NCBI GenBank assembly: GCA_044233485.1
Contig: JBIIJY010000002.1
Span: 8,047 to 72,046 of the forward strand
Source: Minisyncoccia bacterium
GTDB lineage: Bacteria; Patescibacteriota; Minisyncoccia; Phycocordibacterales; UBA6065
DNA length: 64,000 nucleotides
Direction: 5' to 3'
The notes under the pieces are model-generated. The model was not told the DNA's origin, did not search any database, and saw nothing but the letters and a program-made list of their open reading frames with translations. The position numbers and the translations under genes are program-made. Positions within the stretch are counted from its first letter, which is position 1, and each line of letters opens with the position of its first letter. Below are positions 3,685 to 23,851 of this stretch, one piece after another.

Positions 3685-6600
3685 TTACCTCCCCCTCCCC
3701 ATCACCCCCCTCGTCACCGGGCCAAAGAAGCCAAGAGCGGGAGTAATGTTGTTGGCTTTCTGGTAGCGGATGAGAGCAGCACGGGTAGCAGGGCCAAAGT
3801 AGAAGGTTTCGTTGCCAGGAGAGCCAAAGCCTGTCGTAGAGACAGTGAAGCCTTGTGAGTTCAAGAAGCGTTGGAGGAGCTGTACATCAGTACCGTATGA
3901 AGAGACGGTGAGACTACGGGTGAAGGTAGTGGGTGTAATGGGTGGTGGGAGGATGTTGGTGGTCGATGAGAGGCGTAGGAGTGTGGTGGTACCTCGGGGG
4001 GTGTTGACGACCACAGGAGCAGAGCGGCCGCCACCTCCTCCGCCGGAGCGAGAGATGGTGGTGACTACGGGAGCCGGGACAACAGTGAGAGTGAATTCTT
4101 GAGTATGGTAGAAGACTTGAGCCGCTGAGAGTGTATCAGTGATTTTGATACTGAAGGTAGAGGTGGTAGCGGTGGTTGGAGTACCACTGATGATGCCGGT
4201 GCTGGTGTTGAGAGAGAGGCCGTCGGGGAGGGTGCCAGAGGTGAGTTCATACGTAACAGTTCCCTGCTCTCCCTTAGGAGTGAGGAGGGTGAAATATGAA
4301 GTGCCGACCGTAGCCTGTGAGATGGTCGGTGAAGAGAAGGAGATCAGCTGGAAGAGGAGGAGGCGCCTTGGCGCTTGATCTGCGTAGTAGAGGATTCTAT
4401 CAGAATTATTAAACTCCATCGAGTAACCGTACTGAATGGCACTTTGCGTGACGGAATTCGTGTCGGTTATTGAAGTAAAATTAGTACTGTTAAGTATCGC
4501 CACCGCCCCTTCGTTATTTGCAATATCTGCCGTGTCATAAATTTTGACTCGGGCGACGTTGGACGCTTGTGCGTCCATGACATAGAGAAGTTTATTTTGA
4601 GAATCAAATGTAAGCGCATTTGGGCCAGTGAAGCCGGACTGTGTTGTCTCACTTACCTGTGCAGTGAAATTTACTTGCCCGAGTACATACGAAGCATCCA
4701 TACCGTTCGTAATACCACTGGAGAGATCGAAGACAAGAATGCGGTTGAACTGACCATCAGCTACAAACAAGAGTGAACGACCTTCATCAATAGCAATATC
4801 ACTAATAAAAGTACTTGATGCCGTTGGTGATGCCGGCTCTGTATCTGTCGTAAAATCCGGCTGCCCGAGCACATACGAAGCATCCATACCGTTGGTGATA
4901 CCACTGGAGAGATCGAAGACAAGAATGCGGTAATTTGACGGGTCATTTACAAAAAGTCGCTTATGAAGAGAGTCATATTCAATCCCATCGCCGTTGTAAC
5001 CAGCAAACTGATTTTCAGAAAGACCAGGAGAAAGAGTGGTGAAGTTTGTCGAACCAAGTACGTATGAAGCATTCATATTATCTACAACTCCATTTGAAAC
5101 ATCGAACACCAAGACGCGCCCGAAGTAATCGAGTACGAATAGTCGCTGCTCTTCATCATCATAAGTGATAGATTTTGAACCCAAACCAAATCTATTTGCT
5201 GTTGTAGTGGCGTTACATTCACGCTCAATGGAATCACAGCCAATTACCGCCTCTGGAGTGGTATCTACCGGACGACCACTGGCAGTGAGATTATACACTC
5301 GGACTTCACCGTTACCTCCCACAAAAAGTCTGTTGCGTGTCTCATCGACAGCAATCGCTATAGGAATAAGTCTATTGAATACCGGCTGATCATACACCTG
5401 ACTCTTAGAAAAGTTTTGATTTCCCTGCGAGTCCGTCTGGCCGAGTACTCTATATGCACTCATACCGTTTTCGATAGTTCCCGGACTCACATTAAAGACC
5501 AAAACTCGAGCGCGATCACTATCTGCCACAAACAGGTCGAGCTCACCGTTACCTCTGACATTAATCTGTAAATCTCCTGCAGAACCTACGTTATTTCCAG
5601 AGACAGATGGGTCATAGTCAGACCCTGTATAGTATGCGGAAGTAAAGTTGGGACCACCCAACACATACGTCGCATCCATACCATTGGTAATCCCCCCCGA
5701 GAGGTCGAAGATGAGGATGCGACCAAATTCAAAAACATACAGTCTGTTTTGATGAACGGTAATCGAACTAGGCGCATTAACAAAACTAGAGCCGGTCATT
5801 CCTGTAACTCCCGACTCGAAATCCGGTTGCCCGAGTACATACGACGGATCCATGCCATTCGTGATTCCACCCGAGAGATCGAAGACAAGGATACGGTAGG
5901 AATATGCATCAAGTACAAAAAGTCTCTCGCTCACCTCATCGTAAAAAACATCATTTACATCAATCGTAGAACTCGCCGTCAAACTGTCTCCAAGATTTGT
6001 TTCCAAATCTGGCTGCCCGAGTGCATACGAAGCATCCATATTGTCCATAATCCCAGCACTCATATCAAAAATAAGCACTCGATTTAAGGTTTGATCTGTC
6101 ACAAATAATCGCTCAGTTGTCGTACTGTAGTGAATTTTTCCTACTGCAGCGAAGTTGTTTGCAAGTGGTGATAATGGTGAATCCCCTGTCTCAAAATCTG
6201 GCTGCCCGAGCACATACGACGCGTCCATACCATTGGTAATTCCCCCCGAGAGGTCGAAGACGAGAATGCGATTCCAAAGGTAGTCTGCAACATAGAGGAG
6301 TTGATTCACCGAGTCAATTTCGATTCCACTTGCTGCGAACTCACGGGCATTTGCGTCAACTGGACTATTGTTAGTCACAAAATCTGGTTGCCCCAGAACA
6401 TAGTCTGCAACATTATCAATAAGTTCATTATCAGTCGTAAGATTGTAGACCAAGATACGTGTCTCACCATCGAGAACATAGAGCTTGTGATGCACTGGAT
6501 CCAGAGTAATTGAAAAAGGCCACTGGAAACCGTTGGCGCTCGCATCGATATTCCCGCCGTATGAAGTAGTAAAGCTCGGATTACCACTTACATCAAACGT

Positions 6601-6735
6601 TCCAAGAACATCGGATGCATTAAAACCCGCTTCGGCCACTTGTGGTGCCCAAACGACGAGTGAGAGTATAGAGAGAAAAACTATTGTACCGAACTTTTGC
6701 ACAACACAAATTAGTATATCACCACTATCGCACAA
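3685..6735 (-). CDS. giant secreted beta-propeller (NHL/YVTN-like) repeat protein with Gly-rich linker and C-terminal peptidoglycan-binding-like domain
   Basis: Signal-peptide-like N-terminus (KFGTIVFLSILSLVVWAPQVAEA). At least 10 repeats of the type LYV.D....RILVFDLSGGITNGMDASYVLGQPDF. The C-terminus (DVQLLQRFLNSQGF...FGPATRAALIRYQKANNI...GFFGPVT) resembles a PG_binding_1 fold. Exact start uncertain. Confidence 0.7.
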   Translation of the reverse strand: MCDSGDILICVVQKFGTIVFLSILSLVVWAPQVAEAGFNASDVLGTFDVSGNPSFTTSYGGNIDASANGFQWPFSITLDPVHHKLYVLDGETRILVYNLTTDNELIDNVADYVLGQPDFVTNNSPVDANAREFAASGIEIDSVNQLLYVADYLWNRILVFDLSGGITNGMDASYVLGQPDFETGDSPLSPLANNFAAVGKIHYSTTTERLFVTDQTLNRVLIFDMSAGIMDNMDASYALGQPDLETNLGDSLTASSTIDVNDVFYDEVSERLFVLDAYSYRILVFDLSGGITNGMDPSYVLGQPDFESGVTGMTGSSFVNAPSSITVHQNRLYVFEFGRILIFDLSGGITNGMDATYVLGGPNFTSAYYTGSDYDPSVSGNNVGSAGDLQINVRGNGELDLFVADSDRARVLVFNVSPGTIENGMSAYRVLGQTDSQGNQNFSKSQVYDQPVFNRLIPIAIAVDETRNRLFVGGNGEVRVYNLTASGRPVDTTPEAVIGCDSIERECNATTTANRFGLGSKSITYDDEEQRLFVLDYFGRVLVFDVSNGVVDNMNASYVLGSTNFTTLSPGLSENQFAGYNGDGIEYDSLHKRLFVNDPSNYRILVFDLSSGITNGMDASYVLGQPDFTTDTEPASPTASSTFISDIAIDEGRSLLFVADGQFNRILVFDLSSGITNGMDASYVLGQVNFTAQVSETTQSGFTGPNALTFDSQNKLLYVMDAQASNVARVKIYDTADIANNEGAVAILNSTNFTSITDTNSVTQSAIQYGYSMEFNNSDRILYYADQAPRRLLLFQLISFSSPTISQATVGTSYFTLLTPKGEQGTVTYELTSGTLPDGLSLNTSTGIISGTPTTATTSTFSIKITDTLSAAQVFYHTQEFTLTVVPAPVVTTISRSGGGGGGRSAPVVVNTPRGTTTLLRLSSTTNILPPPITPTTFTRSLTVSSYGTDVQLLQRFLNSQGFTVSTTGFGSPGNETFYFGPATRAALIRYQKANNITPALGFFGPVTRGVMGRGR

Positions 6736-12576: not shown

Positions 12577-12607
12577 AAAAGAGCATCACCGAGTGATGCT
12601 CTTTTTG
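12577..12607. terminator. bidirectional rho-independent terminator between convergent thrS and the ATP-cone nuclease gene
   Basis: AAAAGAGCATCAC-CGA-GTGATGCTCTTTTTG. Perfect stem with an A-run and T-run on either side. Confidence 0.7.
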
Positions 12608-12619
12608 ACGCTCGCTTCT

Positions 12620-13474
12620 CTATTTCGAATCGAGTTCGCATACCGCCCCCGCCTCATCGAGAATCTGCCCGACTTTGTCGTCTGAATGGCCAAGATTTTT
12701 CAGAGCTTCTGTCCGTTCCTTTACATCACGGCACAGTACCATACCCTCTTTCATCAGAAGCTGCTTATCTTGTCTTGAGAGACTTGAAAGAACAGTGATC
12801 GGGTGTAGTCGAGACTCTTCAATCATATGCTGAATACTTTCTTTGTGTGGGTAACTCCACCCGACAAGCTTCATCCCCTTACACTCAGCATAGGCGATCG
12901 CTTTATCAGTGAACTTTGTATTGGTAACAAGCCACCCATCAGTAAATTCCCGTCGCTTGCCACCGAATTCATACGAATTACCTTTAATATCTTCATACCG
13001 CGCCTTTACGTAGAGAGCAGTCTTGAGGTCGGACTTAAGCCAGAACTCATTATGAAATTTCGCTTCGATAAATATGAGCTCGGTATCTGACCAGGCGACC
13101 ACGTCTATCTCGTGCTCCACACAACTCCCTTTCACGATCTGATTCGTGACCACTTCATACCCAAACGTCTTGAGTATCTCTGCAAAATATTTTTCAAAGG
13201 TAAACCCTTCTGGCCCGAGTTCAGAGAGAGCGCGCTTGAGTGAGTACTTCATCGCCGCGTGTCGCTCGAGCGTGTGCAAGAGATGGAATGCTTTATCGTG
13301 GATGTCGAAAGTCTTCTCACCTCCCACAAGACCAGCCGCGATTTCCTCGACTACCTTGAGGGCAGTCGCTTCATTGGCTCCGGCCCGTGAGAGTGAACGG
13401 AGGAGTTTTGAGGGATTAAAAATTTCTTGCGTGCCGTCAGCTTTGTAAACAATAATGGGTTTCTTTTCTTCCAT
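12620..13474 (-). CDS. ATP-cone domain fused to Mrr-like PD-(D/E)xK restriction-endonuclease-fold domain
   Basis: N-terminus KPIIVYKADGTQEIFNPSKLLRSL...ALKVVEEIAAGL is ATP-cone-like. The centre has CVEHEIDVVAW...LIFIEAKF, a D...E-x-K catalytic motif. Start at ATG 13474. Confidence 0.6.
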   Translation of the reverse strand: MEEKKPIIVYKADGTQEIFNPSKLLRSLSRAGANEATALKVVEEIAAGLVGGEKTFDIHDKAFHLLHTLERHAAMKYSLKRALSELGPEGFTFEKYFAEILKTFGYEVVTNQIVKGSCVEHEIDVVAWSDTELIFIEAKFHNEFWLKSDLKTALYVKARYEDIKGNSYEFGGKRREFTDGWLVTNTKFTDKAIAYAECKGMKLVGWSYPHKESIQHMIEESRLHPITVLSSLSRQDKQLLMKEGMVLCRDVKERTEALKNLGHSDDKVGQILDEAGAVCELDSK

Positions 13475-13511
13475 TGCCACAGTATATCGAGAAGTGGCGC
13501 TTTGTAAAAAA

Positions 13512-14588
13512 TTAGGCGATGATCCCGCCACCGACGCACACCTCACCCCGATAGATCACACACGACTGCCCAGCTGTCGCGACCTCACCTTGTTCAAGGA
13601 AATGCACCTGACACGAATTGTTACCACTCATTGTGATCCGCGCTGGGACAAGCGCCTGGCGATATCGTGTACGCACTTGATACACTTCGTCTTTTGGCGT
13701 GTGGACGTCTCGCCAGACAACATCAGTCAGCGTACACTCTGACTTCATTTGCACCTGAGGTTTATCGTGACTTACGGTGATCGTGTTTGCTTCAATGTTT
13801 TTCGCACAGACAAAATACGGCGAATCCTGTGGAGTCTTTGATGTTATCCTAAACCCGTGCCGTTCGCCGAGAGTATAAAATAGTGCACCATCATGAGTAC
13901 CGATCACCCGATCTTGCACATCAAGTACATTTCCTTTTTGCCGTTCAATATAGTGAAGTAAAAATTCCTTCATATCGATTTTGCCGACGAAACACAGACC
14001 TTGACTATCTCGCTTTTCCGCTACAGGAAGCTTGAAAGATCTCGCCAACGAGCGGACTTTTTCTTTCGGAAGGTCGCCTACCGGAAAGACACAAGAAGCG
14101 AGCTGTTCTGTCGTGAGCGTCCAGAGGAAGTACGACTGATCTTTATCTTCATCGCCTTTCAAAAGAGCAGTCACACCGTCTTCGACGCGAGTCTGAGCAT
14201 AGTGGCCTGTGGCGACAAATTCCGCTCCCTGTGCGCGAGCGTATCTGAAAAAGCCACCGAATTTTACGTACTTGTTACACATCACATCAGGATTAGGAGT
14301 TCGTCCCGCTTGATACTCGCCAATCATGTAGTCGACAACATGCTTTTTATACTCCTGTTCTAGGTCAAGGGTCACAAACGGGATATCAAGAAGAGCGGCG
14401 ACTCGCATCGCATCGAGACGATCCTGCTCGGCGGTACATGGGAACCAATCCGGTTGCCACACCTTAATAAAAACCCCTGTGACCTCCGCTCCAGCACGCT
14501 TAAGGAGAGCCGCTGACACCGAAGAGTCCACCCCGCCAGACATGCCGAGATAGACTTTTTTCCCTTTCAGATGCGCCAGAGAATTCAT
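13512..14588 (-). CDS. mnmA: tRNA-specific 2-thiouridylase MnmA
   Basis: PP-loop YLGMSGGVDSSVSAALL, then QPDWFPCTAEQD, NPDVMCNKYVKFG and a C-terminal beta-barrel domain. Confidence 0.9.
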   Translation of the reverse strand: MNSLAHLKGKKVYLGMSGGVDSSVSAALLKRAGAEVTGVFIKVWQPDWFPCTAEQDRLDAMRVAALLDIPFVTLDLEQEYKKHVVDYMIGEYQAGRTPNPDVMCNKYVKFGGFFRYARAQGAEFVATGHYAQTRVEDGVTALLKGDEDKDQSYFLWTLTTEQLASCVFPVGDLPKEKVRSLARSFKLPVAEKRDSQGLCFVGKIDMKEFLLHYIERQKGNVLDVQDRVIGTHDGALFYTLGERHGFRITSKTPQDSPYFVCAKNIEANTITVSHDKPQVQMKSECTLTDVVWRDVHTPKDEVYQVRTRYRQALVPARITMSGNNSCQVHFLEQGEVATAGQSCVIYRGEVCVGGGIIA

Positions 14589-14626
14589 AAAATACACAAT
14601 ACTTATTTCTCTAACTCTTGTCAAAA

Positions 14627-15637: not shown

Positions 15638-16984
15638 TTATATCGGAAGATTTGCTGGAGCGGTAGACTTCTTTGAAGGAATACGCGTGAATGTTGGTGT
15701 ACGAGCCACAGATCCTGGGAAGTGGTAGATCGTCGCCAATTCTTCGGTGGTTAAGACCATTGTTCCTTCATGTCGTTCTATTTTCTCATACCAAGAACGT
15801 AAACGGTAGGCTTCATACATACCGAGCTTATTGCCATTTGACTGTACATTCTTAAAGTCTGGCCAATACCATTTACCAGCACTCACGTCAGTATCCTTGG
15901 CAAAGCCGTTCAAGTTTACGGAATTGAACTGTTTCCACATACCTGGGCCGACAAGCCCTTTGTTTTTAAACTTACTTTTTTCAGCAATATACACGACTCG
16001 TATCCCTACTTCAAAAGCGAATTTATTAACCGCACGTTCAAGCGCTTCGATCGTCTCTTGTTGAAACTTAGTCGGACTATACCCAAAATCCTTGTCTTCG
16101 TCTTTGACTTTTAACTTCAAAATTCCGGCGGTCTTCAAATCTTCGAGAGCTTTCTTGGTCGCATCTTTGAACGGATCTTCTTCCTTCCAGATCATTTTCC
16201 AAAAATCACCAGAGAGGATCTGCCCCCAGGTCTTACCTTCTTTTGCTTTCTTTTCCCAGAAAGATGTCCACCCGCCCCAAACTTTTTTCTTACCAAGTGA
16301 GCGCACCACCATCTGCACCCAGGCATGTTCGCCACTCTTGAGCGCACCAAGCGACTCGATCAGCACCGTGAGTGGATCGATCTTTTCCTCTTCCTCTGTC
16401 CCTGGCTTGTCCATACCGTAGTCTATATAGGTCTTGATCGGCAACGGATCGGCTTTCGAAAGCTTCAGCGTATACCCTTCGAGATCGTGCTCATGTATAG
16501 AAAAAGGAACCGAAGCAGTGTAGTCGGGTACCTCATTGATTTCGATGTCCGGAAACTGCGAGTAAATCTGTACCTCAATGTTATTTTTAAGTTTCTTGGG
16601 TACATACATGTAAAATTGCACCTCGCCACCATGACTCGCCATCTCGAGCGAGAACGACGGACGGAGGGTTCCTTTGATATTTCGGTCAATCCATGTCCCC
16701 TCGCCACCAGCTTGGTGAATCGCGGTCAAGACGATTTCCATAGCTTTCGGGGTTTTGAAGGTCTCTTGCGGAAGGCGTATCTGTATACAGACCCAGTCGA
16801 TCTCGGTCATCGCTTTGAGGCGTCGCCACTTCACCCAAGATTTCCAAGTCGTCGCAATAACTGTGTAGAGTAGTACATATGGAAAGAGATACATAAAAAT
16901 ATCCGCCACTTGTGGGAACAAGACGCGTAGCTGACTCAACACTCCTTCATCAAAATAGCGCACAACGGTGTCTAACATACTCAT
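15638..16984 (-). CDS. hypothetical membrane protein (N-terminal TM helices, large soluble domain)
   Basis: Long ORF in an operon-like arrangement with mltG. No recognised motifs. Confidence 0.5.
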   Translation of the reverse strand: MSMLDTVVRYFDEGVLSQLRVLFPQVADIFMYLFPYVLLYTVIATTWKSWVKWRRLKAMTEIDWVCIQIRLPQETFKTPKAMEIVLTAIHQAGGEGTWIDRNIKGTLRPSFSLEMASHGGEVQFYMYVPKKLKNNIEVQIYSQFPDIEINEVPDYTASVPFSIHEHDLEGYTLKLSKADPLPIKTYIDYGMDKPGTEEEEKIDPLTVLIESLGALKSGEHAWVQMVVRSLGKKKVWGGWTSFWEKKAKEGKTWGQILSGDFWKMIWKEEDPFKDATKKALEDLKTAGILKLKVKDEDKDFGYSPTKFQQETIEALERAVNKFAFEVGIRVVYIAEKSKFKNKGLVGPGMWKQFNSVNLNGFAKDTDVSAGKWYWPDFKNVQSNGNKLGMYEAYRLRSWYEKIERHEGTMVLTTEELATIYHFPGSVARTPTFTRIPSKKSTAPANLPI

Positions 16985-17080: not shown

Positions 17081-18196
17081 CTACTGTGTGAGAAGAGCCC
17101 GAGGGTCTACCACACCTTTAAATTTGAGGAACAGGTGATAAGCCTGTGCACGGGGGAATGTGAAACTGAACTTCCCATTGCTGTCTGGCAGGATAGTCTT
17201 GTCGATACCAGACAACACATCGCGAACGACGATACTGGAAGGGACCGAGAAATACCGTCCTTCCCGCCCGAATACAGTAACGCGGGGCGAGAACGTTACT
17301 TCACCGCCCACTAGAGGCGGTGTGAGCTCAACCACTGGATACACTCCGATCACCGTTCCCGGCACATCGCCAAAAACTGAATGTGACTCCCAGAAAGTAA
17401 CTTCGGGAAACTTTATTCCTTCTCGGATGATATGAATAAATCCATCCTCAGCCGAGATTTTCCGGAGATGCAGGTCGATTTTCTCGGCCTCCGCGATGAC
17501 GGTGTGACCATTGAGGTCAATCGCAACTGCGCCAGTGAATCCACGTTGATTGACCGTCAAGACAAGTGTCCCCGAATTGAGCGAACTGACGGGAACTATA
17601 GCTCTATTGTCGACGATCGGGATCTCCAAGCTAGGCACTTGCCAATTGCCCGATAACCACCCAGCGGCCGTGATACGAGTGTTTTCGTTTCCACTGATTG
17701 CGATCGACTCAGTATTCGATGTGAATATCACAGGCGTCGGTGTTGCCACCAAACGACCATCGACTTCATTGATCTGGACAGCGGAGTATCCGCGGAAGAG
17801 AACAATCCCTTCCTTGGAGAAGAGCTCGACTCTGATCTGCACATCATAGTGCCCGTTGACTGGGGCTACCTCAACCCCGCGAATGGGGTCGTTTTGAAAG
17901 ACCCCTTCAAGAGACTGCGCTGAGCCGGGAATGTATCCCCGACTCATAAGCTCCGCGACACTGAGTCTCCTCGTCCGCTCTTCTTCCCTGCCTACAGCTG
18001 ACTGGCCGTAGACTAGGAACTCCGCCGTAGCGAAGCTCTTGAAGAGATACGACTCGACACTTGCCCTCCCGCCGACGATCACATCGAAGGGAACAATGGG
18101 TGCGCTTTGGACGCTGATCTCGGCCTTCTCCTGCGAGTAGGCCGTGGTGACGAACAAGCTTGCCACAAGGGCAAACAATGCGATGATATGTTTCAT
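17081..18196 (-). CDS. hypothetical secreted protein
   Basis: Signal peptide MKHIIALFALVASLFVTTAYSQ. AGGA 5 nt upstream of ATG 18196. Confidence 0.55.
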   Translation of the reverse strand: MKHIIALFALVASLFVTTAYSQEKAEISVQSAPIVPFDVIVGGRASVESYLFKSFATAEFLVYGQSAVGREEERTRRLSVAELMSRGYIPGSAQSLEGVFQNDPIRGVEVAPVNGHYDVQIRVELFSKEGIVLFRGYSAVQINEVDGRLVATPTPVIFTSNTESIAISGNENTRITAAGWLSGNWQVPSLEIPIVDNRAIVPVSSLNSGTLVLTVNQRGFTGAVAIDLNGHTVIAEAEKIDLHLRKISAEDGFIHIIREGIKFPEVTFWESHSVFGDVPGTVIGVYPVVELTPPLVGGEVTFSPRVTVFGREGRYFSVPSSIVVRDVLSGIDKTILPDSNGKFSFTFPRAQAYHLFLKFKGVVDPRALLTQ

Positions 18197-18238
18197 TTTT
18201 CCTGCTGATGTGTTTTGTGTTTCTGTTGACTGCGACAC

Positions 18239-18647: not shown

Positions 18648-19712
18648 CTATTTTGCGAGAGCCACTCCTTCAGCTGGATGATATTTACCATCCTTGTCCT
18701 TACGGAAGAACTTTGGGTTCTGAAGATTCACGAGAATCGTATTTTCCTTAACATATCGTTCCTTAAGTACTTTTTCGATTACCTCCTGACGTGAGAGTGG
18801 ACCATTTTTCTCGAGTACTTCTCGAATGACATCCTTGACGACACCTGAGGCATATCCCCACTCCTTAAGAGCGTAGAGTCCACGGCCGACAAGAACGAAA
18901 CGACTGTCCTTGATGAGCTCGTTATGAGTTGTTGCCACGTGAGCTTTCTTGTTAAAAATCTTTTCAATCTGTCGAGCGACTTCCTTGAAGTGAATCGGTG
19001 ATCCGTGCTTTCGAATGACGAGGAAGGCGTAGTCTCGCATCCCTTTCGCCTTGATGTTTGGTGAGTGTGCCACTCCCCATTCACCGAGCGGATTTTTGTC
19101 CATTCGCTTTGAAATCTTGAGCCATCGCTTGATGATTTCCTCTTGCTTGTACTGCTCTGCCACTTCTTTCAAATGCTCGAGGAAGTTTGTGATCATGTCT
19201 GACTCTGCTACGAGATCTTCGTCTGTGAGACTTTCATAGAGCTTGTGAAGGGCGCCGTGAATCTTTTCTGCGTGCGTCTTGTCGATGAACCATCGATGCT
19301 GGAAATGATCATCTTCCTTATGTCGTGAGAATCGGTGTCCGGCAACGAGAAGGAAATGAAAATGGTTCTGAGTACTTTTATCTTTTGCAAATTCTTCGAG
19401 GAGATCTGACTCGACAACGATACCACCGAGTTCAGTAATCACTTTTTCAAGTTCAGCAAATTCTTTTACTGAGAGTTCGTACTCTTTTGATTTACGAATA
19501 TTGGTAAGGGCGTAGTTCTCAATCTGTCGAACTCGTTCTCGAGTGATGCCATAGATAGCACCGATCGCTTCGAGTGTCATTCGATCGGTATTTTTGCCAA
19601 GTCCATAACGAGCAATCAAGACCTCACGGGCTCGTTCTGGCAGACATTTGAGAAGTTGTTTGGTGAGCTGTTTCGGTTTAAACGAGAACTCACGCGCTTT
19701 TTTGGCACCCAT
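18648..19712 (-). CDS. DNA-binding protein with N-terminal sigma-70 region-4-like HTH and C-terminal HARE-HTH-like winged helix
   Basis: LIARYGL...MTLEAIGAIYGITRERVRQIENYAL is a classic region 4.2 HTH. The C-terminus has IHFKEVARQIEKIF...FVLVGRGLYALKEWGY. Confidence 0.55.
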   Translation of the reverse strand: MGAKKAREFSFKPKQLTKQLLKCLPERAREVLIARYGLGKNTDRMTLEAIGAIYGITRERVRQIENYALTNIRKSKEYELSVKEFAELEKVITELGGIVVESDLLEEFAKDKSTQNHFHFLLVAGHRFSRHKEDDHFQHRWFIDKTHAEKIHGALHKLYESLTDEDLVAESDMITNFLEHLKEVAEQYKQEEIIKRWLKISKRMDKNPLGEWGVAHSPNIKAKGMRDYAFLVIRKHGSPIHFKEVARQIEKIFNKKAHVATTHNELIKDSRFVLVGRGLYALKEWGYASGVVKDVIREVLEKNGPLSRQEVIEKVLKERYVKENTILVNLQNPKFFRKDKDGKYHPAEGVALAK

Positions 19713-19813: not shown

Positions 19814-22800
19814 TTATTCCTTGAGAATCACATTAATAAGCTTGTCCTGTCTGAAGATTATACGCATAACCACCTTTCCTGCAAGCCATTTCGAGAGGCC
19901 ATTCTCAGTGTGGATAACTTCCATCACCTCCTGCTCACTCATTCCCCGCTTTACTGACACCGTCCCGCGAGTTTTACCCTGCACCTGCACCACAAGCTCT
20001 ACCGTATCAGTAATAAGCTTCGTTGCGTCCGCTACTGGCCAGGACGCCACGACAACGGACCCTTTGTTGCCAAGAGCGTTCCAGAGCTCTTCAGCCATAT
20101 GTGGAGCAAATGGAGCTAGAATCTTCACGAGAAGTTCAAAATCCTTCTTAGGAATCTTAACTTCTGCCTCAAGAGCATTAGTGAAGATCATCAATGCGGA
20201 AATTGCTGTGTTGAATTTCATCTCAGCGATATCACTCGTCACTTTTACAATAGTCTGATGCAACTTCGTCTCCACTGCAGGAGAAAGTACCACCGACGAA
20301 TCTTTGTACTCGACTTTCTCAGATAATCCCCATACTCGCTCGAGAAAACGACGAACACCCACCATCCCCGAAGTATTCCAAGCAATGGTTTCGGCAAATG
20401 GCCCCATGAACATCTCATACACGCGCATTGTATCCGCTCCGTACGTCTTGACCATTTCATCGGGATTGACCACGTTTCCGAAACGCTTACTCATCTTGCG
20501 ACCATCCTCACCCATGATGAGACCAACACTTTGAAGCTTCGTGAATGGCTCTCGAGTCGAAACCACGCCGATATCATAGAGAAACTTGTGCCAGAAACGA
20601 GCATAGATGAGGTGACGTGTCGCATGCTCTGCCCCACCAACATAGAGATCAACCGCATTCCAATACTGTTCTTTCACTGGATCAACAAGTGCTTTATTAT
20701 TTTTCGGATCCATATAGCGGAGATAATACCAAGATGACCCTGCCCACTGTGGCATCGTATTGGTTTCACGATACGCTTTGCACTCGCGATTAAGTACTCG
20801 ATGTATATCTTCGAAGTTCGAAAGGATCTGCGTGTCGGGCAATACTTCATTTAATTTCTGGAAACCATGATATCCCCACGCGCAGCCGACAAGCTTCCTG
20901 CGATCGAGGAGATTTTCAAGCTCATACACATCAGCTTTAGTGTCAGTGAAGTAGTAAACGTCCCGTACACCCACCTTCCAATCACGACAGATTTGCTCTA
21001 TCTTTTCTTCTTTCGAATGATGATCTTCGTACGCAAGAATATGTGTCGGTTTTAAACCAGATTTCTTCATTGCTTCAACCACATAGATACGTGAACCGGA
21101 AGATACCACAGCAATTTTTGTATTCTTGAATTTCTTGATCTCCTTAATGAAGTCATGGAAGAGATCGAATTTAGAATTCTTCATTATTTCACCGAACTTT
21201 TTCGACCATTGAAGAGCCTCTTCAAGCCGAGTTTGAGTAAGCATCTGATCTCGTGTGTGGAAAGGTTTTTTGTCAAAATACAGCACCATATCACGAGCCG
21301 CTTCCTCTTCATTTAAAGAGTCGCCAATCTGAACTTTTGCCTTGAGTGTTGCCATCCAGGTATCGCCAAGTACACCGTCAAAGTCAAAGACAAAGTAGCG
21401 AGGCTTATTTTTCTCCGCAACACAGCGCGGACAGGTCGTCTCGACCCACTTGGTAATTGCCGCGAGTGGCGACTCTCCGGTACCAGTCGGTTCATATGAC
21501 TTCACATTTGGAAGTTCTACCGGTAGATCGGCATCGTCGATCAAAAATGTTCCATGCACCGGGCACGTTGCTACAGGAAAAGGCTCGCCCCAGTATCGCT
21601 GACGTGAGAACACCCAATCCTTGAGCCGGTACTTCACTTCCCAGGTACCACCGAGCGCTTGCGTGATTTCTTTTCGACTGGCGAATGCTTCTTTACCACT
21701 AAACGCACCCGAGTCGAGTAGATACCCGTCGCCGGTATACACTCCCTGACCACGAGTGACCAGGTTCCAACCATGGAGATAGGCACGAGTATCGCCTGCT
21801 TCTTTTCCACTCTCAATGAAAGTGTGTACCGCATCTTTTGCCACCCACTCATATGAGTGCTTCGCCAGCTCTGCAAGCTCTATCGGATCCTGAGCTCCGT
21901 CTTTGAGCTCGACCAGCACAGTATGGATCGTGCTCTTTTGATTGTGTTTTTTCCCTGGATGATAAAAATGACTGATGGATGGACTTTGGAACTCGGTGAC
22001 ACGTGCAATATTTCGGTACCCAGTTTCTTCGACGAGTTCTCGAAGTGCGGCATCACTTGGCTTCTCTCCACTTTCAATTCCGCCAGTAATAAATGTTTTC
22101 CAACCGACTTTCCAGTTCAAACACAAGTACGAATCATTGTTCCAATGCTTCGCAATCACAAGGACGACATCTCGCGTGACTTCTGGTGCATCTTGCTTTG
22201 GCGTACACTGCCCAGTCGTATCGACATAGAGCGGAGCGACTACTGTCTGAATCGGAAGTTTGCATGTTTGGGCAAATTCAAAATCACGCTCATCATGAGC
22301 TGGCACCGCCATCACTGCTCCGGTACCATAACTTCCAAGCACATAGTCAGCAACATAGACCGGCACTGGCTTTTTTGTAAATGGATTGATTGCCTGTACA
22401 CCCTTCAAGACGACGCCGGTTTTTTGCGCCACCTCTGTCCGTGTTCGCTCAGTCTTTTTTAGTGATTCCTGCACATACGCCGATACTGCTTGAGCATCTG
22501 CGCCACCACGGGCAGTATATTCTTTGACGAGAGCATGCTCTGGAGCGACCACAACATAGGTAACTCCGGCAATCGTGTCCGGACGAGTAGTGAATACGTG
22601 AAGCTCACTATGGGCACTCTCAGCTTCATGAGTAAGCGCAAAGGTGAGACGTGCTCCTTCACTGCGACCGATCCAGTTTCGCTGACTCTCCTTTATTGAC
22701 TCTGGCCAATCAAGAAGTGGCTTAGGAAACCCTCGAGATGGATCTTTGAGGCGTAGTAGCCATTCAGGAAGTTCTGAATTGACCATGTGCGGTGGAGCGA

Positions 22801-23851
22801 ACTCACTTTCAGAAACCCACAAAATTTCGTTTTGTGCATCTTCACCTGGAGCGAGGGCGACACGAGCATCACTTTGAAGTTCAAAAAGTACCGCGGTCGA
22901 GATTGAGATGCGATTTTCGCCTTTATGCTTTGCAAAATAGTGAGCTTCGACCGGCGCGCCGAGTGTACGAACAAATTTCAAATCGGTATACCCTGTCTCT
23001 TCACGAACTTCACGCTGTGCGGCTTGCACAGCATTCTCCCCTTCCTCAATTCCACCAATAATAAGCGTATCCCACGCAAACTTCTTATTTCGAATAATCA
23101 AATATTTCTTTGACTTTGGGTCAAAAACAATCGCATGAGCCGCCTGGCGAGTGACACTAGGCTTGCCTGATTGAGGTGGATTCACGTGATCTACAACCTT
23201 TGGGATCGGTGGCTCGGCAACCGCATCGAGATCAGCCAAAAGTCGATCGGCATAATCCGTGATTTTGAGTACCCACTGACGAAGTGGTTTTTGCTCCACA
23301 AGCGAGTCACAACGCTCACAGTGTCCATCGACGACGTCTTCGTTTGCCAAACCGGTCTTACATGAAGGACACCAGTTGATCGGCTCAAATGACTCATACG
23401 CAAGCCCCTTCTCGTGCATCTTCGCAAAGACCCACTGAGTCCATTTATAAAATGCTGGGTCAGTCGTATTAACCTCTCGTGACCAGTCATAGTCAAGACC
23501 GAGAATCTCGAGCTGTTTTTTATATCGCGCAACATTTTTCTTTACTGAAACCTGCGGATTAGTTTTTGTTTTGATCGCATAGTTTTCTGCCGGAAGGCCG
23601 AAAGCGTCGAACCCCATCGGGTGCAACACATTGAAACCCTGCATACGCTTCATACGAGAGATGATATCAGTGGCAATATACCCTTTTGGGTGCCCGACAT
23701 GGAGCCCCTCACCAGACGGGTATGGGAACATATCGAGAATGTAGTACTTTGGAGCCTGAGTAGCCAGTGCCTCAGCTGTTTTATATACCTTTTTTTGAGC
23801 CCACACTTTTTGCCACTTTTTTTCTATCTTGGCTGGGTCGTATTTTTTCAT
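19814..23851 (-). CDS. leuS: leucyl-tRNA synthetase with three inserted hydrolase domains (2x NUDIX, 1x HAD); 1345 aa
   Basis: LeuS signatures: MFPYPSGEGLHVGHPKGY, PMGFDAFGLPAEN, WPESIKESQRNWIGRSEG, YRLKDWVFSRQRYWGEPFP, KMSKRFGNV and a C-terminal domain. Insertions carry Nudix boxes (GGIEEGENAVQAAQREVREETGY; GGIESGEKPSDAALRELVEETGY) and HAD motif I (FVFDFDGVLGDTW). Confidence 0.85.
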   Translation of the reverse strand: MKKYDPAKIEKKWQKVWAQKKVYKTAEALATQAPKYYILDMFPYPSGEGLHVGHPKGYIATDIISRMKRMQGFNVLHPMGFDAFGLPAENYAIKTKTNPQVSVKKNVARYKKQLEILGLDYDWSREVNTTDPAFYKWTQWVFAKMHEKGLAYESFEPINWCPSCKTGLANEDVVDGHCERCDSLVEQKPLRQWVLKITDYADRLLADLDAVAEPPIPKVVDHVNPPQSGKPSVTRQAAHAIVFDPKSKKYLIIRNKKFAWDTLIIGGIEEGENAVQAAQREVREETGYTDLKFVRTLGAPVEAHYFAKHKGENRISISTAVLFELQSDARVALAPGEDAQNEILWVSESEFAPPHMVNSELPEWLLRLKDPSRGFPKPLLDWPESIKESQRNWIGRSEGARLTFALTHEAESAHSELHVFTTRPDTIAGVTYVVVAPEHALVKEYTARGGADAQAVSAYVQESLKKTERTRTEVAQKTGVVLKGVQAINPFTKKPVPVYVADYVLGSYGTGAVMAVPAHDERDFEFAQTCKLPIQTVVAPLYVDTTGQCTPKQDAPEVTRDVVLVIAKHWNNDSYLCLNWKVGWKTFITGGIESGEKPSDAALRELVEETGYRNIARVTEFQSPSISHFYHPGKKHNQKSTIHTVLVELKDGAQDPIELAELAKHSYEWVAKDAVHTFIESGKEAGDTRAYLHGWNLVTRGQGVYTGDGYLLDSGAFSGKEAFASRKEITQALGGTWEVKYRLKDWVFSRQRYWGEPFPVATCPVHGTFLIDDADLPVELPNVKSYEPTGTGESPLAAITKWVETTCPRCVAEKNKPRYFVFDFDGVLGDTWMATLKAKVQIGDSLNEEEAARDMVLYFDKKPFHTRDQMLTQTRLEEALQWSKKFGEIMKNSKFDLFHDFIKEIKKFKNTKIAVVSSGSRIYVVEAMKKSGLKPTHILAYEDHHSKEEKIEQICRDWKVGVRDVYYFTDTKADVYELENLLDRRKLVGCAWGYHGFQKLNEVLPDTQILSNFEDIHRVLNRECKAYRETNTMPQWAGSSWYYLRYMDPKNNKALVDPVKEQYWNAVDLYVGGAEHATRHLIYARFWHKFLYDIGVVSTREPFTKLQSVGLIMGEDGRKMSKRFGNVVNPDEMVKTYGADTMRVYEMFMGPFAETIAWNTSGMVGVRRFLERVWGLSEKVEYKDSSVVLSPAVETKLHQTIVKVTSDIAEMKFNTAISALMIFTNALEAEVKIPKKDFELLVKILAPFAPHMAEELWNALGNKGSVVVASWPVADATKLITDTVELVVQVQGKTRGTVSVKRGMSEQEVMEVIHTENGLSKWLAGKVVMRIIFRQDKLINVILKE

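What the first reader, a model, noticed from the sequence alone, without database searches (positions are those of the whole stretch)
12620..13474. ATP-cone domain fused to a PD-(D/E)xK (Mrr-like) nuclease
The N-terminal 90 aa look like the nucleotide-sensing ATP-cone of NrdR and ribonucleotide reductases. The rest has an EIDVVAW...IEAKF catalytic motif typical of restriction-endonuclease-fold nucleases. This would be a nuclease allosterically gated by ATP/dATP levels, and so a plausible sensor-effector defence or toxin module. It sits alone, convergent with thrS and in an operon-like arrangement with mnmA.
Basis: partly seen in the sequence, partly recalled or inferred. Interest (0 to 1): 0.55.

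Follow-up and report, generated by a model that had tools for sequence, protein, structure and literature searches.

The report
ATP-cone-gated nuclease, conserved housekeeping family

Summary
ORF 12620-13474 (-) encodes a 284-aa protein with three domains: an ATP-cone, an Mrr-like PD-(D/E)xK nuclease (E94, D124, E137 and K139 invariant), and a C-terminal (HhH)2-like domain. The protein is an orthologue of the AF1548 family (PDB 1Y88). That crystal construct was N-terminally truncated; the full-length protein carries the cone. The family has thousands of members in Patescibacteria, many archaeal phyla, Bacteroidota and Chlamydiota, and NCBI already names them "ATP cone domain-containing protein" or "restriction endonuclease". 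I found no functional study. In Paceibacteria the gene sits in a conserved housekeeping row (leuS … mltG–mnmA–nuclease, 74 of 80 loci) and co-diverges with its neighbours (Mantel r 0.77). It matches no defence model, viral contig or phage record. Elsewhere it repeatedly heads or ends operons of nucleotide catabolism and salvage: a β-CASP RNase, an AMP-phosphorylase-type enzyme, a PRPP-synthetase-like protein and PPK2; ribose-1,5-bisphosphate isomerase plus AMP phosphorylase in Bathyarchaeia; ribonucleotide reductase in two loci. The best reading is an adenine-nucleotide-gated nuclease for nucleic-acid turnover and salvage. Substrate and direction of regulation are untested.

The parts
12620..13474 (-). 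Complete CDS, 284 aa plus stop: three-domain ATP-cone / PD-(D/E)xK nuclease / (HhH)2-like protein, an AF1548-family orthologue.
   Evidence: ORF list and translation. Pfam. 1y88_A at E 3e-37 over aa 87-278. 2193 homologous clusters. AlphaFold pLDDT 88.5, pTM 0.77.
13223..13453 (-). ATP-cone domain (aa 8-84): a beta-hairpin lid (aa 8-18) plus four helices. K11, E17, F19 and K23 correspond to E. coli NrdR K53, E59, F61 and K65.
13193..13219 (-). Invariant junction motif L86-G-P-x-G90-F-x-F93-E94. It links the last cone helix directly to the first nuclease helix, which carries the acidic residue E94.
   Evidence: Invariant in the CPR alignment and in the archaea+CPR alignment (L86, G87, G90, F93, E94). 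A role in allosteric coupling is inferred.
12845..13207 (-). Mrr-like PD-(D/E)xK nuclease core (aa 90-210). Catalytic residues: D124 (13103-13105), E137 (13064-13066), K139 (13058-13060). Also conserved: H141, R159, D162 and N185-T186.
12635..12811 (-). C-terminal helical (HhH)2-like domain (aa 222-280), probably a non-sequence-specific nucleic-acid binder.
12577..12605 (.). Perfect 13-bp hairpin with a 3-nt loop (AAAAGAGCAUCAC-UCG-GUGAUGCUCUUUU) in the 62-nt spacer between the convergent nuclease and thrS genes. Likely a bidirectional terminator.
   Evidence: Sequence. RNA fold -19.3 kcal/mol, z -3.37, 0 of 200 shuffles as stable. Terminator function is inferred.
13481..13508 (-). Promoter-like TTTACA-16-TATACT in the 37-nt mnmA-nuclease spacer, ending 7 nt before the ATG. 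It could give a leaderless or near-leaderless transcript. Weak evidence.
   Evidence: Consensus scan, 10 of 12 matches. The region's count (6) is not above shuffles (4.1 +/- 1.9). Sequence.
13512..14624 (-). Context: mnmA (tRNA 2-thiouridylase), the conserved upstream same-strand neighbour. It is part of the conserved row leuS - sigma70_r4/HARE-HTH - orf448 - mltG - mnmA - nuclease.
   Evidence: Pfam tRNA_Me_trans at 9e-70. mnmA lies directly upstream in 74 of 80 Patescibacteria loci.

Best explanation
The gene encodes a cytoplasmic, stand-alone enzyme in which an N-terminal ATP-cone reads the adenine-nucleotide pool (ATP/dATP, possibly ADP/AMP). As in ribonucleotide reductases and NrdR, the cone probably acts through nucleotide-driven changes in conformation or oligomeric state. 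It would switch a directly attached Mrr-like PD-(D/E)xK metal-dependent nuclease that is held on nucleic acid by a C-terminal (HhH)2-like domain.

The gene is a vertically inherited chromosomal housekeeping gene of a very large family (AF1548 family: Patescibacteria, many archaea, Bacteroidota, Chlamydiota). It is not a mobile defence module.

Its most likely role is regulated nucleic-acid turnover. It would make the first cuts that let exonucleases produce nucleoside monophosphates. These feed nucleotide salvage or the AMP-phosphorylase (pentose-bisphosphate) catabolic route when the nucleotide or energy pool calls for it.

- **Shown:** architecture, fold, conservation of catalytic and adenine-contacting residues, phyletic spread, synteny, co-divergence, and operon partners.
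- **Inferred:** nucleotide binding, nuclease activity, substrate (DNA versus RNA), direction of regulation, and physiological role.
For: **Architecture and conservation.**
- Domains and fold.
- E94, D124, E137, K139 and K11, K23 are invariant across CPR and archaea.
- The cone's last helix runs straight into the invariant LGPxGFxFE segment that carries E94.

**Housekeeping character.**
- 579 clusters (50% identity) at E<=1e-30. More than 7,500 clusters (90% identity) from a Bacteroidota query.
- Conserved row leuS…mltG-mnmA-nuclease in 74 of 80 loci.
- Mantel r 0.77 against mnmA, with 0 of 999 permutations reaching it. The figure for mnmA against the sigma-like gene is 0.81.
- Mean pairwise identity 55%, against 60% for mnmA.

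**Link to nucleotide catabolism and salvage.**
- Bathyarchaeia loci L085 and L129: ribose-1,5-bisphosphate isomerase (TIGR00511, 419 bits, cut-off 314), then AMP phosphorylase (TIGR03327, 617 bits, cut-off 535), then the nuclease, overlapping by 11 nt.
- Pontibacter and Criblamydia plasmids, Cyclobacterium and another Bacteroidota contig: nuclease, then a beta-CASP/RMMBL hydrolase, then a ~500-aa AMP-phosphorylase-type enzyme, then a PRPP-synthetase-like protein, with an unknown gene and PPK2 following in some.
  - The hydrolase's best PDB hit is ribonuclease TTHA0252, E 8e-75.
  - The phosphorylase's best PDB hits are 4GA5/4GA4, E 8e-93, against ~1e-36 for ordinary thymidine phosphorylases.
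- Nuclease plus beta-CASP alone in Saprospiraceae, with overlapping stop and start. Further partners appear in L160, L162 and L164.
- A ribonucleotide reductase lies directly downstream in L098 and L127.
- In Criblamydia the operon sits among phosphoketolase, glgP and acetate kinase.
- CPR, DPANN and archaea are the known homes of the AMP pathway (PMC5113843; PMC6389311).
Against: - In the window itself, and in all 80 Paceibacteria loci, no AMP-phosphorylase, isomerase or beta-CASP gene lies within +/-6 kb. For CPR the salvage link is transferred from other phyla.
- Across 80 archaeal-type metagenome loci the neighbours are heterogeneous: 146 Pfam families, none in more than 4 of 124 neighbours. 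Some members have no informative partner (L169; Archaeoglobi).
- The partners (a beta-CASP RNase, AMP phosphorylase acting on ribonucleotides) suggest RNA. The Mrr-like fold and the (HhH)2 domain suggest DNA. The substrate is unresolved.
- A free intracellular DNase is dangerous, and no protective mechanism is evident.
- No biochemical data exist for any family member in the literature I could search.
Confidence: 0.5

Rival explanations
1. Structure-specific DNA repair or replication-fork nuclease. A PD-(D/E)xK nuclease followed by an (HhH)2 domain mirrors the layout of XPF/Mus81/Hef. The ATP-cone would couple cleavage of stalled forks, flaps or junctions to the dNTP/ATP pool, as a signal of replication stress.
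For: - A minority of members give weak Pfam Hjc or UPF0102 hits, and JGI annotators named several 'Holliday junction resolvase'.
- The gene is housekeeping-like and vertically inherited.
- RNR is adjacent in L098 and L127. DnaA, RFC, MutS-like and Hel308-like helicase genes are occasional neighbours.
- A Pur_DNA_glyco gene lies nearby in Korarchaeota.
Against: - No ERCC4 or Hjc family membership. Geoglobus has a separate Hjc 2 kb away.
- No recurrent repair-gene partner in 124 tallied neighbours.
- The only recurrent multi-gene partnership found is with nucleotide-catabolic genes.
Confidence: 0.2
2. One reading: a nucleotide-sensing defence, abortive-infection or toxin nuclease. It would be switched on when phage infection perturbs ATP/dATP levels. 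This would be a single-protein sensor-effector, like the CARF/SAVED-nuclease effectors.
For: - The logic matches ligand-gated PD-(D/E)xK effectors: Can2, Card1, Cdn1, Cap4 and NucC are structural neighbours, and there are weak PADLOC CARF_PDDEXK hits.
- The gene is single and needs no partner.
- Two plasmid-borne copies exist.
- The Ferroglobus copy lies near HicA, a transposase and a Prim-Pol gene.
Against: - No PADLOC family-level match.
- Absent from viral contigs and phage genomes.
- Fixed syntenic position among housekeeping genes in 74 of 80 Paceibacteria loci, and co-divergence with neighbours. Typical defence genes are patchy and reside in islands.
- The plasmid copies sit in metabolic operons, not defence islands.
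- No modification-reading domain and no immunity gene.
Confidence: 0.12
3. RNA-processing nuclease functionally tied to tRNA or rRNA metabolism in CPR. It would be co-expressed with MnmA and cleave tRNA or rRNA according to ATP level, for example in ribosome or tRNA turnover during starvation.
For: - mnmA lies immediately upstream in 74 of 80 loci, often with gaps under 60 nt.
- Elsewhere the partner is a beta-CASP enzyme with an RMMBL 'RNA specificity' domain whose closest solved relative is ribonuclease TTHA0252.
- The PD-(D/E)xK superfamily includes RNA-cleaving members (PMC3424549 abstract).
Against: - The mnmA link is confined to Paceibacteria and is absent in archaea and Bacteroidota. 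It may simply reflect conserved gene order.
- A promoter-like site and a hairpin at the mnmA stop hint at separate transcription, though only weakly.
- (HhH)2 and Mrr-like folds are typical of DNA enzymes.
Confidence: 0.1
4. A non-catalytic, NrdR-like nucleotide-sensing DNA-binding regulator of dNTP-supply genes, with the nuclease fold reused as a DNA-binding or oligomerisation module.
For: - ATP-cone plus DNA-binding domains is the NrdR recipe.
- RNR lies directly downstream on the same strand in two lineages (L098, L127).
- From my own knowledge, archaea lack NrdR.
Against: - All four catalytic residues are invariant across domains of life, which argues for catalysis.
- No Zn-ribbon. TIGR00244 (NrdR) scores only 14.7 bits against a cut-off of 124.65.
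- RNR adjacency is seen in only 2 of ~170 loci.
Confidence: 0.05

Closest known systems
AF1548 of Archaeoglobus fulgidus (PDB 1Y88; Pfam Mrr_cat PF04471 + AF1548-like_C PF22357; COG1787 group)
   Different: The crystallised construct lacks the cone because of a mis-annotated start, so the published descriptions (PMC1821046, PMC1874628, PMC3424549) treat it as a plain predicted restriction endonuclease. No function was ever determined. The window protein is a bacterial (Paceibacteria) orthologue at ~40% identity.
NrdR and the ATP-cones of ribonucleotide reductases (NrdA, NrdB, NrdD)
   Different: The output domain is a nuclease, not a reductase or a Zn-ribbon DNA binder. The second residue of the 'KR' motif is Ala or Ser in CPR and DPANN members (KADG/KASG), while Archaeoglobi keep KRDG. 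E. coli NrdR also has Ser there. Nucleotide specificity is untested.
Mrr-type (type IV) restriction endonucleases
   Same: The catalytic core matches Pfam Mrr_cat above threshold. MspJI and AspBHI, whose catalytic domains are of this type, are structural neighbours.
   Different: There is no Mrr_N or other modification-reading domain. The gene is not patchy or island-borne and is absent from phages. Resemblance is limited to the catalytic fold.
Ligand-gated PD-(D/E)xK effector nucleases of CRISPR type III and CBASS (Can2, Card1, Cdn1, Cap4, NucC)
   Different: The sensor is an ATP-cone that reads bulk adenine nucleotides, not a CARF/SAVED domain that reads a dedicated second messenger. There is no cyclase or CRISPR partner, and the genomic behaviour is housekeeping-like.
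XPF/Mus81/Hef structure-specific nucleases
   Same: Same domain order: a restriction-fold nuclease followed by a C-terminal (HhH)2 module.
   Different: No ERCC4 signature or Pfam match. This is an analogy of layout only.
[quoted passage not shown]
   Same: The two share a genomic association: e2b2-deoA-nuclease in Bathyarchaeia, and AMP-phosphorylase-type genes in Bacteroidota and Chlamydiota operons. The taxonomic range overlaps (PMC5113843, PMC6389311).
   Different: The nuclease has never been described as part of that pathway. In the window's own lineage the genes are not adjacent.

Membership tests
ATP-cone domain (Pfam PF03477) | Profile match at or above Pfam's gathering score | tested here: inconclusive
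   The window protein scores 23.3 bits against a cut-off of 25.8. All 121 orthologues match at E<=1e-3, best 2.1e-11. hhalign of the family profile against E. coli NrdR gives 90% probability, E 1.6e-6.
ATP-cone domain (Pfam PF03477) | Fold: beta-hairpin lid plus four-helix bundle | tested here: met
ATP-cone domain (Pfam PF03477) | Conserved adenine-contacting residues (E. coli NrdR Lys53, Glu59, Lys65) | tested here: met
   K11, E17 and K23 align to K53, E59 and K65 (residue roles from 10.1101/2025.03.28.645925). K11 and K23 are invariant and E17 is at least 90% conserved across CPR and archaea.
ATP-cone domain (Pfam PF03477) | Binds ATP/dATP and changes the activity or oligomeric state of the host protein | not testable with these tools
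   Needs ITC or SEC-MALS and activity assays.
PD-(D/E)xK nuclease, Mrr_cat family (PF04471) | Profile match above the gathering score | tested here: met
   32.7 bits against a cut-off of 21. 121 of 121 orthologues match.
PD-(D/E)xK nuclease, Mrr_cat family (PF04471) | Catalytic E...D...(D/E)xK residues present and conserved in homologues | tested here: met
   E94, D124, E137 and K139 are invariant in 121 CPR sequences and in 27 CPR plus archaeal sequences. They equal D38/E51/K53 of 1Y88.
PD-(D/E)xK nuclease, Mrr_cat family (PF04471) | Restriction-endonuclease-like alpha/beta core fold | tested here: met
Mrr-type type IV restriction enzyme (functional class) | N-terminal modification-dependent DNA-recognition domain (Mrr_N or equivalent) | tested here: not met
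   There is no such Pfam hit. The N-terminus is an ATP-cone, and the only other domain is (HhH)2-like.
AF1548 family (PF22357 C-terminal domain; PDB 1Y88) | Homology across the nuclease plus the C-terminal helical domain | tested here: met
Known anti-phage defence systems (PADLOC-DB v2) | Match to a defence protein model over most of its length | tested here: not met
   Only weak local hits to nuclease cores: ZorD at 5e-4 and CARF_PDDEXK at 1.5e-3. The operon partners are also negative.
Known anti-phage defence systems (PADLOC-DB v2) | Patchy, mobile, island-associated distribution; presence on phages or plasmids | tested here: not met
   Fixed synteny in 74 of 80 loci. Mantel r 0.77 with mnmA. 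No viral contigs and no phage records. 2 of 72,556 plasmids carry the gene, both within metabolic operons. No whole-genome defence-island census was possible.
NrdR (TIGR00244) | N-terminal Zn-ribbon plus ATP-cone; equivalog score | tested here: not met
   14.7 bits against a cut-off of 124.65, covering the cone only. No Zn-ribbon is present.
XPF/Mus81/Hef (ERCC4 + (HhH)2) | ERCC4 nuclease-domain signature | tested here: not met
AMP / pentose-bisphosphate nucleotide-catabolic gene clusters | Operonic linkage with AMP phosphorylase, R15P isomerase or related genes | tested here: inconclusive
   Met in Bathyarchaeia (L085, L129) and in several Bacteroidota and Chlamydiota loci (L162, L167, L168, L171, L174). 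Not met in the window or in 80 Paceibacteria loci within +/-6 kb.

The most novel reading that the evidence does not exclude
This family is the missing, regulated entry step of nucleotide catabolism and salvage in CPR bacteria, DPANN and other archaea, and Bacteroidota. It would be an endonuclease whose catalysis is directly gated by an ATP-cone reading the cell's ATP/dATP (energy or dNTP) status. With a beta-CASP exonuclease, it would release NMPs for AMP phosphorylase, the pentose-bisphosphate route and PRPP regeneration. That would make it the first enzyme outside ribonucleotide reduction shown to be allosterically controlled by an ATP-cone. It would also explain how organisms lacking de novo nucleotide synthesis control self- or foreign nucleic-acid recycling.
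Probability: 0.3. Interest if true: 0.7.

Novelty: new variant of a known kind. Interest (0 to 1): 0.45.

Why it matters
ATP-cones are the classic allosteric switches of ribonucleotide reductases and of the repressor NrdR. In the literature I could search, no nuclease controlled by one has been characterised.

The family is very large and conserved across two domains of life. In Paceibacteria it behaves like a core gene, and these organisms cannot make their own nucleotides.

If the cone really gates cleavage, the protein would be a direct molecular link between nucleotide or energy status and nucleic-acid degradation. The operons found here (beta-CASP RNase, AMP-phosphorylase-type enzyme, PRPP-synthetase-like protein, PPK2; e2b2-deoA) give a concrete, testable pathway context.

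It also corrects the record for a 20-year-old structural-genomics entry. 1Y88 is a truncated protein that lacks its regulatory domain.

Against this, the gene itself is not a discovery. Thousands of orthologues are already annotated with exactly these domains, and the defence reading that made it look exciting is not supported.

Tried and rejected
2. **Defence hypothesis.** PADLOC on the protein and on its operon partners, IMG/VR and the phage collection were all negative.
3. **Literature.** Searches for ATP-cone with nuclease, endonuclease, restriction endonuclease or Patescibacteria, for AF1548 and 1Y88, and for AMP phosphorylase with beta-CASP found no functional study of the fusion.
4. **Conserved partner in archaeal-type metagenome loci.** Neighbours were heterogeneous. 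Only RNR (2 loci), AMP-phosphorylase-type genes and cation transporters recur at low frequency.
5. **Metal or Fe-S site from conserved cysteines (C118, C198, C248).** Rejected as a family feature. C248 is not conserved in DPANN members, and C118 and C198 are only ~90% conserved.
6. **Promoter and terminator scan.** Counts were not above shuffles, so the internal promoter-like site is only noted.
7. **Functional coupling to MnmA.** Not supported outside Paceibacteria.
Full report
**1. The observation**

The minus strand carries an ORF 12620..13546. The ATG at 13474 gives a 284-aa protein starting MEEKKPIIVYKADG. This start matches the N-termini of its homologues.

Pfam finds three parts:
- Mrr_cat, aa 90-204: 32.7 bits, cut-off 21.
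- AF1548-like_C, aa 225-278: 31.5 bits, cut-off 23.9.
- ATP-cone, aa 8-72: 23.3 bits, just under the cut-off of 25.8.

Three further results secure the cone:
- Every one of 121 orthologues hits PF03477, best E 2e-11.
- A profile of the family's N-terminal domain aligns to E. coli NrdR with 90% probability, E 1.6e-6.

Together with E94 it is invariant in 121 CPR sequences and in a mixed CPR and archaeal alignment.

- thrS is convergent (Pfam). It is separated by 62 nt that contain a perfect 13-bp hairpin (-19.3 kcal/mol, z -3.4).
- mnmA lies 37 nt upstream on the same strand.

**2. What family it is**

The literature treats 1Y88 as a predicted restriction-type nuclease with catalytic D38/E51/K53, placed in the Mrr_cat/COG1787 group. 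Its function is unknown (PMC1821046, PMC1874628, PMC3424549).

A search with the crystallised sequence returns a 265-aa protein that is 99% identical and carries PF03477 + PF04471 + PF22357 (P0271). The deposited construct therefore lacked its ATP-cone, and the true family architecture is the three-domain one.

Family members occur in these groups:
- Archaeoglobi, Nanoarchaeota, Aenigmarchaeota, Korarchaeota, Bathyarchaeia and Altiarchaeales.
- Bacteroidota: more than 7,500 clusters from one query.
- Chlamydiota.

The 50%-identity library holds 579 clusters at E<=1e-30. NCBI already names these proteins 'ATP cone domain-containing protein', 'restriction endonuclease' or 'ATPase'. The fusion is catalogued but uncharacterised. 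Seven literature searches found no functional work on it.

**3. Are the sensor and the effector plausibly functional?**

In E. coli NrdR, Lys53 and Glu59 on the lid and Lys65 on helix 1 cover the adenine (10.1101/2025.03.28.645925). hhalign places K11, E17 and K23 of this protein at those positions. K11 and K23 are invariant, and E17 is at least 90% conserved across both domains of life.

The last cone helix runs directly into the invariant segment L86-G-P-x-G-F-x-F-E94. This segment begins the first nuclease helix and carries a catalytic-site acid. That is a short, rigidly conserved path for allosteric coupling, though the coupling itself is inferred.

Purifying selection on every catalytic residue argues for a working nuclease rather than a degenerate DNA-binding module.

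**4. Defence module or housekeeping gene?**

The window is an ordinary chromosomal stretch of a Paceibacteria-type genome. It contains gyrB, thrS, mnmA, mltG, leuS, ftsZ, tsaD, cysS, lepA, ligA, gatA and a type IV pilus ATPase.

Evidence for housekeeping behaviour in 80 Patescibacteria species-level loci:
- The upstream row leuS – sigma70_r4/HARE-HTH protein – 448-aa ORF – mltG – mnmA – nuclease is kept on one strand. mnmA is directly upstream in 74 of 80 loci, while the downstream side varies.
- Pairwise divergence of the nuclease tracks that of mnmA (Mantel r 0.77; 0 of 999 permutations reach it) and of the sigma-like gene (0.81). Those two housekeeping genes track each other at 0.81.
- Mean pairwise identity is 55%, against 60% for mnmA.

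Evidence against a defence role:
- No PADLOC model matches beyond weak nuclease-core similarity.
- No relative is found on IMG/VR viral contigs or in 50,697 phage genomes.
- Only 2 of 72,556 plasmids carry one.
- There is no adjacent methylase, antitoxin or modification-reading domain.

This is the signature of a vertically inherited core function, not of a typical defence or toxin gene.

**5. What the neighbours say elsewhere**

Archaeal contexts are mostly uninformative and variable:
- In Archaeoglobi the gene follows membrane transporter or channel genes.
- Across 80 metagenome loci the neighbours span 146 Pfam families, none in more than 4 of 124 neighbours.

One theme recurs across distant lineages.

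(a) *Bathyarchaeia (L085, L129).* Ribose-1,5-bisphosphate isomerase (TIGR00511, 419 bits, cut-off 314) is followed by AMP phosphorylase (TIGR03327, 617 bits, cut-off 535). The nuclease follows and overlaps the phosphorylase gene by 11 nt.

(b) *Pontibacter (Bacteroidota) and Criblamydia (Chlamydiota) plasmids.* The nuclease orthologues are full-length, 41.5% and 39.3% identical to the window protein, and 49% identical to each other. They head the same tightly packed operon: nuclease – MBL-fold hydrolase – 'thymidine phosphorylase family' protein – ribose-phosphate pyrophosphokinase.

(c) *Chromosomal Bacteroidota loci.* The same operon appears in Cyclobacterium (L171) and another Bacteroidota contig (L174), followed by a PPK2 polyphosphate kinase and a P-type ATPase. 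Saprospiraceae have the nuclease and the beta-CASP gene with overlapping stop and start. L160, L162 and L164 carry subsets of the partners.

The partners were identified as follows:
- The hydrolase is a beta-CASP/RMMBL enzyme. Its closest solved relative is ribonuclease TTHA0252, E 8e-75.
- The phosphorylase has a ~90-aa N-terminal extension. It matches 4GA5/4GA4 at E 8e-93, against ~1e-36 for ordinary thymidine phosphorylases. From my own knowledge these entries are T. kodakarensis AMP phosphorylase; the deposited name is 'putative thymidine phosphorylase'. It exceeds the cut-offs of NCBIfam's archaeal-type phosphorylase models and comes close to the AMP_phos equivalog (486 bits, cut-off 535).
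- In Criblamydia the operon lies among phosphoketolase, glycogen phosphorylase and acetate kinase.

(d) *Two different archaeal-type loci (L098, L127).* The nuclease is followed directly on the same strand by an ATP-cone-bearing ribonucleotide reductase.

None of the operon partners matches a defence model. AMP phosphorylase and R15P isomerase define the nucleotide-consuming AMP pathway known from archaea, CPR and DPANN (PMC5113843, PMC6389311). No nuclease has been assigned to the step upstream of that pathway.

**6. Most likely mechanism**

The cone binds adenine nucleotides. Occupancy or identity of the ligand (ATP against dATP, ADP or AMP) changes conformation or oligomeric state. That change is passed through the invariant LGPxGFxFE junction to the PD-(D/E)xK site. 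The (HhH)2 tail holds the enzyme on nucleic acid without sequence specificity.

The enzyme's cuts then allow exonucleases, such as the beta-CASP partner where present, to release NMPs for salvage or for phosphorolysis to base plus ribose-1,5-bisphosphate.

- **Shown:** domains, fold, residue conservation, distribution, synteny, co-divergence and operon partners.
- **Inferred:** ligand binding, catalysis, the substrate (the partners suggest RNA, the folds suggest DNA), the sign of regulation, and transfer of the salvage role to Paceibacteria, where no pathway gene lies within 6 kb.

I put about 0.5 on this overall reading. About 0.95 applies to the architecture and to the 'conserved housekeeping family' part.

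**7. Rivals**

| Rival | Confidence | Main point |
|---|---|---|
| Structure-specific repair or fork nuclease tuned by the dNTP pool | 0.2 | Nuclease + (HhH)2 mirrors the XPF/Mus81 layout; NucS and Hjc are structural neighbours; RNR adjacency. No repair partner recurs. |
| RNA-processing enzyme tied to MnmA | 0.1 | The linkage is confined to Paceibacteria. |
| NrdR-like non-catalytic regulator | 0.05 | Contradicted by invariant catalytic residues and the lack of a Zn-ribbon. |

**8. Comparison with known systems, and novelty**

The protein is a member of the ATP-cone, Mrr_cat and AF1548 families by sequence and fold. It is not a member of the Mrr type IV restriction class (no reader domain), NrdR, XPF/Mus81, or any PADLOC defence system.

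It would work like the ligand-gated PD-(D/E)xK effectors (Can2, Card1, Cap4, NucC) in having a sensor fused to a nuclease. The difference is that its sensor reads a bulk metabolite. It would work like RNR and NrdR in the sensor's logic.

The gene in this window is one more orthologue of a catalogued family, so the sighting itself is not new. An ATP-cone-controlled nuclease remains an uncharacterised variant of known regulatory and catalytic kinds. To my knowledge, the operon link to AMP-phosphorylase-type nucleotide catabolism has not been described.

**9. Verdict**

- Interest is moderate (0.45). This is a big, conserved, experimentally tractable family of unknown function with a clear hypothesis, but the gene is already annotated with these domains and its behaviour is housekeeping-like.

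Noticed in passing
window 19814-23851 (-): A 1345-aa leucyl-tRNA synthetase has a NUDIX domain (aa 235-362) and a HAD-type hydrolase domain (aa 821-975) inserted into it (Pfam). This is far longer than a usual LeuRS. The C-terminal part is conserved in the same position in 47 of 80 related loci.
   Followed up: no
window 18648-19712 (-): A 354-aa protein has an N-terminal Sigma70_r4 domain and a HARE-HTH domain. It is 65-70% identical across Paceibacteria loci, more conserved than mnmA. It may be an unusual, highly conserved transcription factor of this lineage.
   Followed up: partly
PDB 1Y88 / P0271 (locus L083 6001-6798): The structural-genomics protein 'AF1548' was crystallised from a mis-annotated, N-terminally truncated ORF. 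The 265-aa form, 99% identical over the crystallised part, carries an ATP-cone. In L083 its start overlaps the end of an MS-channel gene.
   Followed up: yes
L171, L173, L174, L172, L167, L168, L170, L162, L164: In Bacteroidota and Chlamydiota the nuclease sits in a larger recurrent island. Members include Ion_trans_2, a GAPDH-like protein, an SDF symporter, PFK or 2-hydroxyacid dehydrogenase, PPK2 and a P-type cation ATPase. MgtC occurs in L164; phosphoketolase, glgP and acetate kinase occur in Criblamydia. It looks like an energy-stress or fermentation island.
   Followed up: partly
L098 4836-6908 and L127 4920-7487: A ribonucleotide reductase with its own ATP-cone lies immediately downstream of the cone-nuclease on the same strand in two different archaeal-type lineages, with a 17-nt gap in L098.
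   Followed up: partly
L081, L082, L083 (Archaeoglobi): In three Archaeoglobi genera the gene abuts or overlaps the 3' end of a different membrane transport gene each time: AA_permease+Usp, CorA, and an MS channel. This may be chance or a link to ion or osmotic status.
   Followed up: no
window 13481-13533 (-): A GC-rich hairpin followed by a T-run overlaps the mnmA stop (13515-13533). A TTTACA-16-TATACT promoter-like site ends 7 nt before the nuclease ATG, with no obvious Shine-Dalgarno sequence. This hints at a separate, near-leaderless transcript. Scan counts are not above shuffles.
   Followed up: partly
P0148, P0155, P0180, P0209, P0210 (family members): Some family members are 295-403 aa long and match the profile in two stretches that break at about profile position 162-168. 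This indicates an insertion in the beta-hairpin loop after the catalytic core.
   Followed up: no
window 13121-13123 (C118) and 12881-12883 (C198), minus strand: Two cysteines are at least 90% conserved across archaea and CPR, and a third (C248) is invariant only within CPR and Archaeoglobi. No metal-site pattern is evident and their role is unknown.
   Followed up: partly
window 44464-49197 (-) and 3685-6735 (-): Two very large proteins, probably surface proteins. The 1577-aa one has only an fn3 hit. The 1016-aa one has He_PIG, arylesterase-like and peptidoglycan-binding hits.
   Followed up: no
window 15638-16984 (-) and 17081-18238 (-): ORFs of 448 aa and 385 aa have no Pfam match. The 448-aa one is conserved in the syntenic row in 63 of 80 loci at 34-43% identity. 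The 385-aa one has no counterpart in any of the 80 loci.
   Followed up: no
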